A DNA stretch of 64,000 nt, taken from the NCBI GenBank assembly GCA_963740085.1, contig CAVUCU010000001.1, forward strand, positions 928,001 through 992,000. The letters run 5' to 3'. The translations under genes were made by a program, and so were the position numbers. The notes under the pieces were generated by a model. That model saw nothing but the letters and a program-made list of their open reading frames with translations, was not told the origin of the DNA and did no database searches. Of this stretch, positions 3,302-9,544 are shown piece after piece (position 1 is the first letter of the stretch; every line of letters begins with the position of its first letter). The DNA comes from Nitrospirota bacterium. Lineage in GTDB: Bacteria > Nitrospirota > UBA9217.

Positions 3302-3520
3302 AGGTATACCCTCCAAAAAATTTAGACGATACGTCCGTCAGTTTCTCTGCCTTATAAAAACGCGATATCGTTAGCTGATGACGATGAACAACGAAAATTA
3401 GTGCCCCGCCGGGACGGGACCTATGCCAGGGGTTGGCATGTCGCTGGGATATTGCGGGTGTCTGTGCTGTTTCAAGATAGACTGCCTCTCTCTATGATAA
3501 TTCCCGTTAAAAACCCTTTG

Positions 3521-3550
3521 ACACTAGCATATGCCGCGGAAAATTGTCAA
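3521..3550 (-). promoter_or_regulatory. sigma70-like promoter for aminotransferase-serA-purA operon
   Basis: Minus strand TTGACA followed ~18 nt later by TG-C-TAGTGT. Confidence 0.5.
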
Positions 3551-3608
3551 GAAAATAGTGCGGCCTGCTCCCCCTTGAGCGCGAGCAAGCCCGGGGAACG
3601 AAATCCCG

Positions 3609-4004
3609 CTAATTCGGCACAACATCCAGGTTCACTTCCACCGAAAGCACGGGCGTGACGCGATCATTAGAATAAATACTGATGTGTTTCGAAACAGGAC
3701 CGCTGCTGTTGACCGTGGTCACCGTCGCCTTCACGCGTCCTACGGCCCCCGGATCCAGGTGGTCGGAACTGACCACCGCTGCGGCACAGCCTCAGGAAGG
3801 CTGGACCTTTTCTATGATCAGTTGTTCGCTGCCTACGTTCTTGATCTCGAATATATATTCAGCCTTTGCCCCCTGGACGACCTTGCCGAAATCGTGGCGC
3901 ATCTCTTTGATCTCGATCCTCGGCCCGTCGTTTTCAAGCGCCGCCAGTGGTCCGGCATACAGCAGGCCGGTCAGCAACACGCACATTAAAGCCATCCGCC
4001 TCAT
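3609..4004 (-). CDS. DUF1573-family exported protein with in-frame TGA (candidate selenocysteine, S-U-G-C)
   Basis: Signal peptide, HDFGKV..F.IKNVG..L.I.KV.PS then TGA(3794-3792) GGC TGT, then 60 more sense codons (GCAAAVVSSDHLDPGAVGRVKATVTT...KHISIYSNDRVTPVLSVEVNLDVVPN) to TAG 3611-3609, completing the DUF1573 pattern (SCGC...L.PG..G...SND). Confidence 0.85.
3758..3777 (-). promoter_or_regulatory. SECIS-like hairpin
   Basis: GGTGGTC-AGTTCC-GACCACC, perfect 7-bp stem starting 14 nt after the TGA, G at second loop position. Confidence 0.65.
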
Positions 4005-4068
4005 TTTCCACCCCTTGTCCGCGTTCTTATCCGCAATACGGCGTCCGGATTCCGCGGTCATCGTTTAT

Positions 4069-4773
4069 TTACATCCCCATTTTCTTTTGATAGATCATGC
4101 TGACGATCTCCTCGCGTGAAATGAGCTTTTTTTCTATCAACAGGCTGATGATCGCGTCGAGACGTATGCGATAGTCTTCCAGTCTCTGTTTCGCGTTTTC
4201 ACCACTGGATAGAATGGGTGAAGACGCGTCGGACTCGGAAACCCCCTTCAAGCTCAGATCACTGCCCCGGATAAGCTCCATCTTCCCGCCCGGGGAAGCC
4301 CCCTGTTGAAATGGGGACTGCTCCGGTTTGCGGACCACGGTCTCGCCGTCATAGTATTTCCTGATGGCATCCTTGATCTCGGACTCCAGTACCAGCGAGG
4401 GTTTGATGGTACAACCGGTTATGAACCGGATCTCATCCATAGCCTCAATATCGTAGGGGTCCAGCATCGCCAGGACCAGCGTTGTCCCTTCCTTTTTCAC
4501 GGGCAACACGAGATACTTTTTCGCTGTCTCGGGCTTGATCAGTTTGAAGACTTCCGGCGAAACCTCGGGCTCGAACAAATTGATATAGGGGATCTGTAAT
4601 TTTCGCGCGATCACCCGGGACAGACCCTCTTCCTTGACGAACGCAAGCGATATCAGGACCGCTCCCAGTTTCCCTCCCCAGTTGCGCTGGTGAGAAAGGG
4701 CGGTCTCAAGCTGGAAATCATCAATCAGACCAGCATCCTTAAGCATATCACCCAGTTTCTTAACCTCAGCCAA
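4069..4773 (-). CDS. stand-alone MshEN / T2SSE_N domain protein (putative c-di-GMP receptor)
   Basis: KKLGDMLKDAGLIDDFQLETALSHQ..GGKLGAVL tandem MshEN-like motif plus AKKYLVLP..LAMLDP T2SSE_N; no ATPase domain. Start (TTG 4773) uncertain. Confidence 0.8.
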   Translation of the reverse strand: MAEVKKLGDMLKDAGLIDDFQLETALSHQRNWGGKLGAVLISLAFVKEEGLSRVIARKLQIPYINLFEPEVSPEVFKLIKPETAKKYLVLPVKKEGTTLVLAMLDPYDIEAMDEIRFITGCTIKPSLVLESEIKDAIRKYYDGETVVRKPEQSPFQQGASPGGKMELIRGSDLSLKGVSESDASSPILSSGENAKQRLEDYRIRLDAIISLLIEKKLISREEIVSMIYQKKMGM

Positions 4774-4987
4774 ACGGCCCCCCGGGAACGGACGTATCAA
4801 ACAAAACACCGATCTGCGCAGAATTATATGCCTCGCAGACCGAGAAAGTCAATGATTTTTGAGGAAATATCGCCTTGCACAGGTGAAAGCATCGCAGAAC
4901 CGGAACAGGCCATCCTTATTTACCGCGGAAGAGAGGGCACCTTACCTTCCTCCTGCAAACGGCGAGGTGCGGTCGCTCAAGAATTTG

Positions 4988-7067: not shown

Positions 7068-9432
7068 TCATCCGCACTTGGAGAACCCGCATCCCCGGCA
7101 GAAGGCACAACCTTCTCCAAATTCAAGCAGGCCTCCGCAGTCCGGACATTCCGGGCAGAGCCCCAGGTGGTTCTTGTTCCCGCCCTTTGAGCAATCAGAA
7201 GAAGTATAGGCAACCGTTGGCTGTGCAGTAGAAACGATGGCCTTGGGCTTATGATGCTGGTGGCCCACCGCGTCCTTGGTATAGCGCTCGAGCGCCCTGG
7301 CGATGGCATCGGGGCAGGACAGGATCGAGCCTCCCTCTCCCCATGCCGGCGACGGGCACCTGATCCCCTTCACCTGCTTTACGATGGAATCGATGGATAT
7401 CCCCGAACGGAGCGCGAGGGAGACCATGCGGGAGACCGCCTCTGACTGGCTCGCGGCGCACCCGCCGGACTTGCCCATGGTGGAGAAGACCTCGCAGATG
7501 CCCTCCTCGTCCTCGTTGATCGTGATATAGAGGTTTCCGCAGCCCGTAGGAAGCTTCTGGGTGACCCCATGGGTGAGCACCGGACGGTTCCGCGGCTTCT
7601 TTTCCTCCGCCAGTTCAGGCGAGGCAGAGGCAACGGCCATGTGCTGGCCCGCGGCAGCCGCTTTGCGCGCCTTCTCCGTGGCGCCCGTGCTGAGCACCTG
7701 CTCGTCGCGCGACCCGTCACGGTAGATGGTCACACCCTTGCAGCCGAGTTTGTATGCCATCATATAGACATTCTTCACATCGTCCCGGGTGGCCGTGTGC
7801 GGAAAGTTCACGGTCTTGGAAACGGCATTATCCGTATATTTCTGGAATGCGGCCTGCATGCGGATGTGCCACTCCGGAGTGATGTCGTGGGCCGTATACG
7901 AACACGCGCTGCACGTCCTCGGGGACCGTCGGGACGCCCGTGCACCCCCCATGCTCGGCGATGTCCTTCATGAGCTCTTCGGAATAGAAACCGCCCTCCC
8001 TGGCAACGCGCTCGAACACGGGGTTCACCTCGAGGAGTTCCGCGCCGTCCATGACCCTCCGGACAAAGGTGAGCCCGAAGAGCGGCTCGATGCCGCTGGA
8101 ACAGCCGGCGATGATGGACAGGGTCCCTGTCGGAGCGATCGTCGTGATCGTCGCGTTTCTGACCGGCGCAGATTCCGGCTTGTCATGGATGCTTCCCTTG
8201 AAGTTCGGAAAGGCCCCGCGCTCTTGTGCAAGCTCCTCGCTCATCTTCCGGCCCTCGTCGGTGATGAACTTCATTACCGTCTCGCCGAGCCTCACGGCCT
8301 GGTCGGAGTTGTAGGGAATGCCCAGTTCAAGCAGCATATCGGCGAACCCCATGACCCCAAGGCCGATCTTGCGGTTCGCCCGTGTCTGCTGGCCGATCTT
8401 TTCAAGGGGATACCTGTTTACATCGATCACGTTGTCGAGGAAGTGGACCGCCTGCCGCACCGCGTGGCGGAGCTTGTCATAATCCACAGCCGTGCCATTG
8501 ACCGCCAGCATCCTCGACAGATTGATCGAGCCGAGGTTGCAGGACTCGTAGGGCAGGAGCGGCTGCTCACCGCAGGGGTTGGTGGACTCCATCCTTCCCA
8601 CGTGCGGTGTGGGATTGTACTGGTTGATGCGGTCAAGAAAGATGATGCCCGGGTCGCCGTTCTTCCACGCCATGTTCACTATGGTCTCGAATACGCGGGG
8701 GGCATTGAGGGTCTTGACCACGGCCTTAGCGCGCGGGGAGACCAGGTCGTACTCTCCGTCAGTGTCCACTGCATCCATGAACCTGTCGGTTATGGCCACC
8801 GAGATGTTGAAGTTGTTCAGCCGGTCGTTCTGCTGCTTGCACGTGACGAAATCGAGGATGTCCGGGTGGTCCACCGAGAGGATGCCCATGTTCGCGCCGC
8901 GCCGCGTGCCGCCCTGCTTCACCGTCTCGGTTGCCGCATCAAACACGGTCATGAACGAGATGGGACCGGACGATACGCCCTTCGTGGACTTCACTACGTC
9001 GTTCTTCGGACGGATGCGGGAAAAGGAGAAGCCCGTGCCGCCGCCGGACTTGTGGATGAGCGCGGCGTTCTTCACGGAATCGAAGATCTCCTCCATGGAG
9101 TCGCCCACCGGCAGCACGAAACAGGCCGAGAGCTGTCCAAGCTCGCGCCCCGCGTTCATAAGCGTTGGGCTGTTCGGCAGGAACTCAAGTGAGGTCATGA
9201 GGCGGTAGAACTCGGTCGCGGTCCGCTCCACGTCAACATCGGATTTGCCATAGGCCAGGTCGCCCTCGGCTATGGTCCTCGCCACGCGGGTGAACATGTC
9301 GACCGCTGTTTCGATCACAGTTCCGTCCCCGTTCCGCTTCAGGTACCTTTTTTCAAGGACCTTGAGGCAGTTCTCTGAAAGATCAAGACCCTTACCGGAT
9401 GCTGTTTTCGAACCAGTAGCCGCACTCTTCAT
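7068..9432 (-). pseudogene. nrdJ: class II (B12-dependent) ribonucleotide reductase with C-terminal TSCPD/Zn domain, interrupted by a +1 frameshift near 7896
   Basis: [33 protein letters not shown] in one frame; [39 protein letters not shown] in the next. Junction TTC GTA T ACG GCC CAC has one extra base. Confidence 0.9.
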
Positions 9433-9544
9433 AAAGCCCCTCCCTGTGATGCTGGCAAGTGATATCAAACGCTGAAAGAGCACCCCTGAGGCTGCTCTTT
9501 AAAATAGTAATAATGGTTGATGGTTTATTGGGTAAACCGGAATG

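What the first reader, a model, noticed from the sequence alone, without database searches (positions are those of the whole stretch)
3609..4004. Candidate selenoprotein: DUF1573 with S-U-G-C and a SECIS-like hairpin
Seen: the ORF track stops at TGA 3794-3792, but the frame continues for 60 sense codons that complete the DUF1573 domain. The TGA is exactly where the family has the first Cys of its SCGC motif (KVQPS-TGA-GC). A perfect 7-bp hairpin (GGTGGTC/AGTTCC/GACCACC) starts 14 nt downstream, with G near the 5' side of the loop. Known: bacterial Sec insertion uses UGA plus an immediately 3' stem-loop. Inference: an exported protein with a UxC redox or metal-binding motif in a family of unknown function that gene callers split into two fragments.
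Basis: partly seen in the sequence, partly recalled or inferred. Interest (0 to 1): 0.85.

Follow-up and report, generated by a model that had tools for sequence, protein, structure and literature searches.

The report
Exported Ig-like selenoprotein, U-G-C motif
This is a real gene for a small exported bacterial protein whose in-frame TGA is read as selenocysteine; the family is already on published selenoprotein lists, but its job is unknown and relatives point to a redox role outside the cytoplasm.

Summary
On the minus strand, 4004..3609 is one 131-codon frame broken only by TGA 3794-3792. It encodes a signal peptide and a complete DUF1573 domain, with the TGA at the first Cys of the S-C-G-C motif. 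A 7-bp hairpin with loop AGUUCC follows 14 nt later.

The genome has selA, selB, tRNA-Sec and a Sec-containing selD. In a survey of 301 genomes of the phylum (Nitrospirota, by relatives' record titles), 107 of 150 listed matches carry the TGA. In all 52 U-G-C sequences examined it sits at the same column, and the hairpin covaries (6 of 7 pairs). Cys forms lack the hairpin. In the genomes sampled, SelA was found in 5 of 5 TGA-form and 0 of 5 Cys-form genomes.

It is not new in kind. "DUF1573, UGC" is listed in selenoprotein reviews and traces to OS_HP2 (Zhang & Gladyshev 2007). This Nitrospirota group scores below the NCBIfam OS_HP2 cut-off.

The function is untested. The model is a PapD/ASH-like Ig fold with U-G-C in a tight turn. 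Relatives fuse the domain to cytochrome c. Cys forms sit beside DsbA-like genes in genomes where DsbB and VKOR were not found. This suggests a periplasmic redox-relay role.

The parts
3609..4004 (-). Full selenoprotein gene: 131 codons (ATG 4004-4002, Sec-TGA 3794-3792, stop TAG 3611-3609)
   Evidence: Read-through translation. Pfam DUF1573 spans the TGA. The start at 4004 is chosen because 22 orthologues align from this Met. The upstream ATG at 4061 has no counterpart in them.
3939..4004 (-). Probable Sec-type signal peptide (about residues 1-22: MRR, hydrophobic core, L-A-A)
   Evidence: Judged by eye. The AlphaFold model shows a lone low-confidence helix at 3-16 ahead of the domain. All homologues have a like N-terminus. 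No signal-peptide predictor was available.
3651..3917 (-). DUF1573 / HYDIN-VesB-like Ig domain (residues 30-118)
   Evidence: Pfam PF07610 77.3 bits and PF22544 49.6 bits. Model pLDDT 91.1 with eight strands. PapD/ASH-like fold matches.
3786..3794 (-). Sec71-Gly72-Cys73 (TGA GGC TGT), the only invariant columns of the 74-sequence alignment
   Evidence: In the model it lies in the four-residue turn between strands 62-69 and 74-78.
3758..3777 (-). SECIS hairpin: 7-bp stem (3777-3771 with 3764-3758) and loop AGUUCC (3770-3765). 21 nt lie between the UGA and the loop.
   Evidence: Covariation in 23 and in 52 sequences. It fits the four constraints of the published bacterial SECIS model.
4007..4016 (-). 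Purine-rich Shine-Dalgarno-like stretch (AAGGGGTGGA) just before ATG 4004
   Evidence: Read by eye. Not tested.
4069..4809 (-). Upstream gene for a 246-aa MshEN-domain protein, probably co-transcribed
   Evidence: Pfam MshEN 85.2 bits. It lies next to the selenoprotein gene in 20 of the 22 distinct loci of the window's taxonomic family; of the other two, one is cut by a contig end and one lacks it. No terminator-like site lies between the two genes on the minus strand.
4823..4852 (-). Promoter-like site (TTGACT, 18 nt, TATAAT; 11 of 12) ahead of the MshEN gene
   Evidence: This is a consensus match only; one site was found and 1.3 are expected by chance.

Best explanation
The gene encodes a 131-residue precursor of an exported, single-domain Ig-like (PapD/ASH-type) protein of Pfam family DUF1573. 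UGA 3794-3792 is decoded as selenocysteine by SelB and tRNA-Sec, directed by the hairpin 14 nt downstream. This step is inferred from comparative evidence, not from an experiment, and I put it at about 0.95.

After export, the mature protein of about 109 residues presents Sec71-Gly-Cys73 in a tight beta-turn. I propose that this turn is a redox-active selenolate or selenenylsulfide centre. It would take part in periplasmic thiol/disulfide-type electron relay with haem c and DsbA-type partners. This step is inferred from domain fusions and operons of relatives, and I put it at about 0.5. The partner in this genome has not been identified.
For: Sec decoding:
- selA, selB, tRNA-Sec(tca) and a selD with its own in-frame TGA are in the genome.
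- 28 of 39 match rows in 41 related genomes carry the TGA, as do 107 of 150 listed rows in 301 genomes of the phylum (my hand count).
- In 23 of 23 and 29 of 29 U-G-C sequences the TGA is at the family's first-Cys column. Seven same-phylum relatives and 30 from other phyla have Cys there.
- The hairpin is 89.1% paired in 52 sequences, against 71.9% in shuffles and 18-48% when the 3' partners are slid. 6 of 7 pairs show compensatory changes, and 0 of 500 shuffles reach the covariation score.
- The loop bases A-G-U-U-C are nearly invariant.
- None of the 7 Cys forms has the hairpin.
- The element meets the four constraints of the bacterial SECIS model quoted in PMC13188914.
- dN/dS after the TGA is 0.15-0.55, against 0.12-0.39 before it, in 9 pairs (one of them without an upstream ratio).
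- SelA was found in 5 of 5 TGA-form genomes and 0 of 5 Cys-form genomes sampled.

Fold and site:
- Model pLDDT is 91.1, with U-G-C in the 70-73 turn.
- The fold matches PapD/ASH/HYDIN domains.
- The nearest solved relative, 2qsv, lacks C-G-C at this column, so the motif is not needed for the fold.

Redox role:
- 16 of 20 Cys-form loci of the phylum fuse the domain to a cytochrome c part with two CxxCH motifs.
- 13 of those 16 have a DsbA-like gene directly adjacent, and one more has it fused.
- 6 also have a TlpA-like gene.
- 9 of 43 Sec-form loci also carry the cytochrome c fusion.
- DsbB and VKOR were not found in 5 of 5 genomes that have the DsbA-like/DUF1573-cytochrome c pair.
- The window's own genome encodes an exported DsbA-like protein with U-P-H-C.
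Against: - There is no experimental evidence of selenium insertion, and no RNA run was available.
- In this genome the protein has no cytochrome c part and no redox neighbour. Its neighbours are an MshEN-domain gene, a PP-loop gene and an aminotransferase.
- Across 20 other Sec-form loci the recurring neighbours are housekeeping genes (UvrA, ApbE, PCMT and others).
- Some relatives keep Sec but lack the second Cys (U-G-x-x-A-R), so a Sec-Cys bond cannot be the universal chemistry.
- Two of the five covariation measures do not exceed shuffles. For pairs with a change on both sides, 98 of 500 shuffles reach the observed value; for further pair types, 496 of 500 do.
- In longer context the fold energy is not significant.
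- The protein scores 67.9 bits against a cut-off of 100 for NCBIfam OS_HP2.
Confidence: 0.6

Rival explanations
1. It is a true selenoprotein, but the U-G-C turn is a binding site for a soft metal, a metalloid or sulfane sulfur (for example Cu(I), Hg(II), or arsenic or polysulfide handling), not a thiol/disulfide relay.
For: Several selenoprotein families in the same published tables are metal-related (MerT, cation ATPase, YHS, CobW-like, putative mercuric reductase). Relatives with Sec but no partner Cys fit a single chalcogen ligand or carrier. No redox neighbour exists in this genome.
Against: No metal-transport or resistance gene recurs next to the gene in the 42 distinct Sec-form loci examined. 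The fusions and neighbours of relatives are cytochrome c, DsbA-like and TlpA-like proteins. Those are electron and thiol-exchange partners, not metal handlers.
Confidence: 0.25
2. It is a true selenoprotein, but the Sec-Cys pair is only a structural staple: a selenenylsulfide that survives a reducing, sulfidic periplasm better than a disulfide. The module would be adhesin-like.
For: The domain is a common repeat of giant surface-type proteins. 61,113 representatives match at E <= 0.001, some with up to 31 matched stretches, and many repeats carry C-G-C.
Against: The fold does not need the motif: 2qsv and several repeats lack it. C-G-C is the only invariant feature in 74 sequences, and Sec persists where the partner Cys is gone. 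A purely structural Sec has, to my recollection, no precedent.
Confidence: 0.08
3. The TGA is a real stop: a nonsense mutation, a sequencing error, or two separate small genes.
For: Gene callers annotate two fragments. The second fragment has a GTG start at 3776.
Against: The same TGA at the same column appears in 52 examined sequences from many genera, and 107 of 150 listed matches carry a TGA. Purifying selection acts on the downstream codons in frame with the upstream part. One Pfam domain spans the TGA. The hairpin covaries. Contigs of runs X1 and X3 show no change at 3792-3794.
Confidence: 0.02
4. TGA is read as an ordinary amino acid because the organism uses a changed genetic code (TGA = Trp or Gly).
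For: None beyond the open frame.
Against: The same gene ends with TGA in 4 orthologues (L013, L017, L024, L025). Homologues have Cys at the column, not Trp or Gly. The complete Sec machinery is present, and SelA presence tracks the TGA form.
Confidence: 0.01

Closest known systems
OS_HP2 / 'DUF1573 domain-containing protein (UGC)' selenoprotein family (Zhang & Gladyshev 2007, PMC1976440; tables of PMC9312934 and PMC13188914; NCBIfam NF041425)
   Same: Same Pfam family (PF07610) and the same U-G-C motif. Predicted by in-frame TGA plus a downstream stem-loop. Function unknown.
   Different: The window's protein and all 9 other relatives tested (8 from this phylum, 1 from another; 7 Sec-form, 2 Cys-form) score 69-92 bits, below the model's 100-bit cut-off. 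The 2007 paper reported 2 sequences from worm-symbiont deltaproteobacteria and no Cys homologue. Here the form is widespread in another phylum, with many Cys homologues and cytochrome c fusions. That OS_HP2 equals the 'DUF1573' row is my inference from the row order of the tables and the NCBIfam name. I could not see the paper's Figure 4 or its supplements.
DsbA-like and other UxxC thiol:disulfide oxidoreductase selenoproteins
   Same: Exported, with Sec replacing the first Cys of a two-cysteine redox motif. The window's genome itself has an exported DsbA-like protein with U-P-H-C.
   Different: A different fold (Ig-like beta-sandwich, not thioredoxin) and a U-x-C spacing with one residue, not two.
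C-x-C redox shuttles such as the C-G-C of yeast Erv2 and C-G-C peptides that mimic protein disulfide isomerase
   Same: A Cys-Gly-Cys unit that can cycle through a strained ring and pass disulfides on to a partner.
   Different: No sequence or fold relation. This is an analogy only.
Bacterial SECIS consensus (bSECISearch model as quoted in PMC13188914)
   Same: Loop of 6 nt (3-9 allowed), stem of 7 bp (4-16 allowed), G then U at loop positions 2-3, 21 nt from the UGA to the loop (16-37 allowed), and -13.0 kcal/mol (limit -7.5).
   Different: No Rfam family matches. The loop A-G-U-U-C is far more conserved here than the general model demands.
PapD-like / ASH / HYDIN Ig domains; PDB 2qsv (Porphyromonas gingivalis protein of unknown function)
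   Same: Fold: Foldseek E 5.8e-7 to 2qsv and 1.2e-6 to a HYDIN PapD-like domain. A profile of Cys forms finds 2qsv at E 1.1e-4.
   Different: 2qsv has no C-G-C at the aligned column. None of these structures gives a function.

Membership tests
Bacterial selenoprotein gene (SelB/SECIS-decoded UGA) | In-frame UGA aligned with Cys in homologues | tested here: met
   U at one column in 23 of 23 and 29 of 29 U-G-C sequences. Cys there in 7 same-phylum and 30 other-phylum homologues.
Bacterial selenoprotein gene (SelB/SECIS-decoded UGA) | Stem-loop just 3' of the UGA that fits the bacterial SECIS model | tested here: met
   All four quoted constraints are met. Covariation is seen in 52 sequences. 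The hairpin is absent from the 7 Cys forms.
Bacterial selenoprotein gene (SelB/SECIS-decoded UGA) | selA, selB, selC and selD in the genome | tested here: met
   SelA was found in 5 of 5 TGA-form and 0 of 5 Cys-form genomes sampled.
Bacterial selenoprotein gene (SelB/SECIS-decoded UGA) | Coding conservation continues past the UGA | tested here: met
   dN/dS of 0.15-0.55 downstream in 9 pairs. The Pfam domain spans the UGA.
Bacterial selenoprotein gene (SelB/SECIS-decoded UGA) | Selenium shown in the protein | not testable with these tools
   Needs 75Se labelling or mass spectrometry.
Pfam DUF1573 (PF07610) | Score over the gathering threshold | tested here: met
   77.3 bits against 26.1, residues 30-118.
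NCBIfam NF041425, OS_HP2 family (seleno)protein | Score over the curated cut-off of 100 bits | tested here: not met
   67.9 bits for the window's protein and 69.3-92.5 bits for 10 relatives. Sec was scored as Cys, which may cost a little. So it is a relative of that subfamily at domain level, not a member of it.
PapD-like / ASH Ig fold | Seven- to eight-stranded beta-sandwich that superposes on solved members | tested here: met
   Model pLDDT 91.1. 60 PDB matches at E <= 0.001, led by 2qsv, HYDIN, CEP192 and VesB/VesC domains.
Periplasmic thiol:disulfide relay component (works like, not member of, Dsb systems) | Physical or genetic coupling to DsbA-type proteins and an electron outlet | tested here: inconclusive
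   Coupling is seen in Cys-form relatives (13 adjacent plus 1 fused among 16 cytochrome c fusions) but not at this locus.

The most novel reading that the evidence does not exclude
The [Sec/Cys]-Gly-Cys Ig-like module is a so far unrecognised periplasmic disulfide (or selenenylsulfide) relay. It would connect DsbA-type oxidoreductases to c-type haem, acting as a soluble stand-in for DsbB/VKOR in anaerobic Nitrospirota that lack both. The window's stand-alone Sec form would be the selenium-boosted version, working with the exported Sec-DsbA (U-P-H-C) of the same genome.
Probability: 0.2. Interest if true: 0.75.

Novelty: new member of a known kind. Interest (0 to 1): 0.4.

Why it matters
For annotation, this gene and over a hundred like it in Nitrospirota genomes are stored as two meaningless fragments. 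One C-terminal piece even carries a wrong name. Reading them through restores a conserved exported selenoprotein.

For biology, DUF1573 is a very large family with no known function: 61,113 cluster representatives match at E <= 0.001. Selection for Sec at its one invariant motif says that the motif does chemistry. The fusions to cytochrome c, and the tight pairing with DsbA-like genes in genomes where DsbB and VKOR were not found, give a concrete idea that can be tested at the bench. The idea is that this domain helps make or move disulfide bonds outside the cytoplasm of anaerobes.

Tried and rejected
- PDB sequence search with the read-through protein: 0 hits at E <= 1.
- Rfam on 3400-4200: no match at E <= 1.
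- selD comparison: I compared the hairpin with the one after the selD TGA of the same genome, and no shared loop was evident. I dropped this line.
- Profile search of 1.84 billion representatives: the best 150 are mostly multi-repeat proteins of up to 7,635 residues, so I did not use them to deepen the alignment.
- Neighbour clustering around 20 Sec-form loci outside the window's family: it gave only housekeeping genes (ApbE, UvrA, PCMT, a sigma-54 activator, DksA-type, UbiA, YceD) and no common partner.
- Sequencing runs: no RNA holder listed. Contigs of X2 and X5 do not reach the TGA.
- Complex prediction of a DsbA-like protein with the C-G-C domain of a Cys-form relative: no verdict, score 0.08 against a mark of 0.32. 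I count it neither for nor against binding.
- Literature: 'DUF1573' occurs in 4 papers of the library, and none gives a function. One lists a DUF1573 gene among iron-responsive genes of Bacteroides thetaiotaomicron (passage only). A search on DsbA/DsbB/VKOR in anaerobes (listing only) turned up nothing on such fusions. I did not search further, so I do not claim that the fusion is unpublished.
- Coordinates of the structure model were not available to scripts. I therefore could not measure which conserved residues (N56, K106, N113, D114) lie near U-G-C.
- What I saw of each paper:
  - PMC9312934: the listing, a table passage and a reference passage.
  - PMC13188914: passages.
  - PMC1976440: section 12 and one passage; figures not held.
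  - PMC10434189: one passage.
  - Supplements of all papers: closed. They may hold the OS_HP2 alignment and accession details.

Full report
WHAT IS THERE. On the minus strand the standard-code ORF list shows two pieces: 3792..4061 (89 aa, ending at TGA 3794-3792) and 3609..3776 (55 aa). Read with TGA=U, 4004..3609 is a single frame of 131 residues with U71, followed by 60 sense codons and TAG. Pfam DUF1573 matches residues 30-118, across the TGA, at 77.3 bits against a cut-off of 26.1. The related HYDIN/VesB Ig-like model also matches. The local context is K-V-Q-P-S-U-G-C. Fourteen nucleotides after the TGA lies GGUGGUC-AGUUCC-GACCACC (3777-3758). Taken alone, it folds at -13.0 kcal/mol with z -3.73. 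In 48-66 nt of G+C-rich context the fold is not unusual, with z -0.65 and -1.10.

IS THE UGA SELENOCYSTEINE? The assembly is 3.46 Mb and 98.5% complete.
- It holds selA at 522.6 bits.
- It holds selB, with the SelB winged-helix domain in a 646-aa frame next to selA.
- It holds a tRNA-Sec with anticodon tca nearby.
- It holds a selD that itself has an in-frame TGA (context S-S-C-A-G-U-A-A-K).

Searching 41 related genomes with the read-through protein gave 39 match rows, 28 of them with a TGA inside. Aligning one sequence from each of 30 loci put the TGA at one column in 23 of 23 cases, with Cys there in the other 7.

A profile search of 301 genomes sampled across the phylum matched 128 genomes. 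Of the 150 rows listed, 107 have a TGA inside and 43 have none, by my hand count. I fetched 40 of these regions, from other taxonomic families and from paralogues. Twenty-nine have U-G-C at the same column, followed by a hairpin with the same loop. The other 11 have Sec at what looks by eye like the same column but with other motifs (see below).

The hairpin shows real covariation.
- In 23 sequences, 94.8% of cells pair and 4 of 7 pairs have compensatory changes.
- In 52 sequences, 89.1% pair, against 71.9% in shuffles and 18-48% when the 3' partners are slid. Six of 7 pairs have compensatory changes in 79 cells, and 0 of 500 shuffles reach the covariation score.
- Two coarser measures do not stand out. 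For the number of pairs with any double change, 98 of 500 shuffles reach the observed value. For the number of extra pair types, 496 of 500 do.
- Several compensations pair a Val/Ile change in one arm with a synonymous or conservative change in the other.
- The loop A-G-U-U-C is nearly invariant.

The element meets all four constraints of the bacterial SECIS model as quoted in a 2026 review: loop 3-9 nt, stem 4-16 bp, G in the first two loop positions followed by G or U, 16-37 nt from the UGA to the loop, and at most -7.5 kcal/mol.

Further points support Sec decoding.
- None of the seven Cys-form relatives has this hairpin.
- Codons after the TGA evolve under purifying selection. dN/dS is 0.15-0.55 in 9 pairs, against 0.12-0.39 before the TGA (one of the nine pairs gave no upstream ratio).
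- Four orthologues end the same gene with a TGA stop. That argues against a general reassignment of TGA.
- SelA was found in 5 of 5 TGA-form genomes and 0 of 5 Cys-form genomes sampled, all 95-100% complete.
- Contigs from runs of two studies cover 3792-3794 without change, although one of the runs may be the source sample.

Together these meet every comparative criterion for a bacterial selenoprotein. Direct proof of selenium in the protein is lacking.

WHO CARRIES IT. Record titles of same-genus relatives read 'MAG: Nitrospirota bacterium'. Within the window's taxonomic family, 57 of 63 sampled genomes have the gene. There the order PP-loop gene, MshEN-domain gene, selenoprotein gene, class-V aminotransferase gene is conserved. 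A promoter-like site precedes the MshEN gene and no terminator-like site separates the two genes, so they are probably co-transcribed. These genomes are close kin, so the synteny says little about function.

All 21 database proteins that match are fragments. Ten are N-terminal pieces covering 53% of the frame and eleven are C-terminal pieces covering 40-42%. One of them has been given the name of an unrelated regulator.

IS IT KNOWN? Yes, in kind. [quoted passage not shown] That paper's Table 2 has 'OS_HP2', with two TGA sequences from the delta1 and delta4 symbionts of a gutless worm and no Cys homologue. NCBIfam carries NF041425, 'OS_HP2 family (seleno)protein'. The window's protein hits it at 67.9 bits, below the 100-bit cut-off. 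Ten relatives score 69-92 bits, also below it. This is therefore a sister group of the described subfamily in another phylum, not a new kind of selenoprotein. That OS_HP2 equals the DUF1573 row is my inference from row order and the NCBIfam name. The figure and supplements that would show it were not available.

WHAT MIGHT IT DO? The AlphaFold model was built from 74 of the 89 sequences I had; near-duplicates were left out.
- It is confident, with pLDDT 91.1.
- It shows an N-terminal helix at residues 3-16, then an eight-strand sandwich.
- S70-U71-G72-C73 forms the four-residue turn between strands 62-69 and 74-78.
- Foldseek places it among PapD-like/ASH/HYDIN Ig domains. The best match is 2qsv, a Porphyromonas gingivalis protein of unknown function.
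- 2qsv lacks C-G-C at the aligned column, and some repeats of multi-domain relatives lack it too. The motif is therefore not needed for the fold.
- It is nevertheless the only invariant feature of the 74-sequence alignment.

Selection of Sec at such a site points to chemistry rather than scaffolding.

The informative evidence comes from relatives. Of 20 Cys-form loci fetched from the phylum:
- 16 encode the C-G-C domain fused to a cytochrome c part with two CxxCH motifs and a conserved Met-Pro.
- In 13 of those 16, a DsbA-like gene (F-C-x-H-C and a T-P-T loop) lies directly adjacent, often overlapping by 4 nt. One more has it fused, one is cut by a contig end, and one lacks it.
- The six loci of one taxonomic family add a TlpA-like gene.
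- The remaining four of the 20 are two-domain proteins without haem motifs.

Nine of 43 Sec-form loci also carry the cytochrome c fusion after a U-G-C domain. None of the 43 has a DsbA-like or TlpA-like neighbour within the 1.5-5 kb examined. In 5 of 5 genomes with the DsbA-like/C-G-C-cytochrome c pair, neither DsbB nor VKOR was found.

The window's genome has no DsbB, a marginal VKOR match at 28.5 bits against a cut-off of 27.5, and two DsbA-family genes that each carry an in-frame TGA. One of them is exported, with F-Q-U-P-H-C.

I therefore favour a periplasmic redox-relay role for the U-G-C turn. I hold it at about even odds, for three reasons:
- this locus has no redox neighbour;
- no partner has been identified;
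- some relatives keep Sec without the second Cys, which fits a metal, metalloid or sulfur-carrier site as well.

VERDICT. It is a new member, in Nitrospirota, of a selenoprotein family that is already listed. The added value here is its breadth in the phylum, the strongly conserved SECIS, and a testable lead to function. I score interest at 0.4. The boldest reading not excluded is that this domain is a soluble link between DsbA-type enzymes and haem c in anaerobes without DsbB/VKOR. I give that about 0.2.

Noticed in passing
L040:4211-4219 (same-genus genome, at a contig end): One copy reads S-U-G-U: both Cys codons of the motif are TGA (TGA GGC TGA), followed by the same hairpin. It could be a diselenide form or a single-base error in one assembly.
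   Followed up: partly
L097-L108 except L104 (other families of the phylum): DUF1573-like domains with Sec at what looks by eye like the same column but with other motifs. Eight domains have U-[RK]-x-C-T (a UxxC form), three have U-G-x-x-A-R and one has U-K-R-A, the last four without a partner Cys. Each has a downstream hairpin with a GUUC- or GGUC/GGGC-type loop. The tables I saw list only 'UGC' for this family.
   Followed up: partly
L152:1501-1977 (-) and L155:1501-2070 (+), same genome, outside the window: Two DsbA-family genes with an in-frame TGA at the active site. One is exported, with F-Q-U-P-H-C, and lies between formate-dehydrogenase-type subunit genes and a di-haem cytochrome c peroxidase gene. 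The other has no signal peptide and reads Y-I-U-P-F-C.
   Followed up: partly
L131-L146 (Cys-form relatives): A gene pair conserved in four taxonomic families: a DsbA-like gene followed by a DUF1573(C-G-C)-cytochrome c gene, the two often overlapping by 4 nt. In the five such genomes checked, DsbB, VKOR and SelA were not found. This may be an undescribed route for DsbA recycling.
   Followed up: partly
L003:1501-2421 (-), same genome: selD itself carries an in-frame TGA at the usual Sec/Cys position (S-S-C-A-G-U-A-A-K).
   Followed up: partly
window 7068-9483 (-): A ribonucleotide reductase large-subunit gene appears as two ORFs in different frames that overlap at 7828-7952. The first holds Pfam barrel positions 1-346. 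The second holds positions 466-523 plus a TSCPD domain. This could be a frameshift (real or from assembly) or an unusual arrangement.
   Followed up: no
L013, L017, L024, L025: In four orthologues the same gene uses TGA twice: once as Sec, with the hairpin, and once as its stop codon.
   Followed up: partly
protein P0022: A C-terminal fragment of this selenoprotein is named 'NADH/NAD ratio-sensing transcriptional regulator Rex' by one source. This is most likely a mis-annotation caused by the split gene.
   Followed up: no
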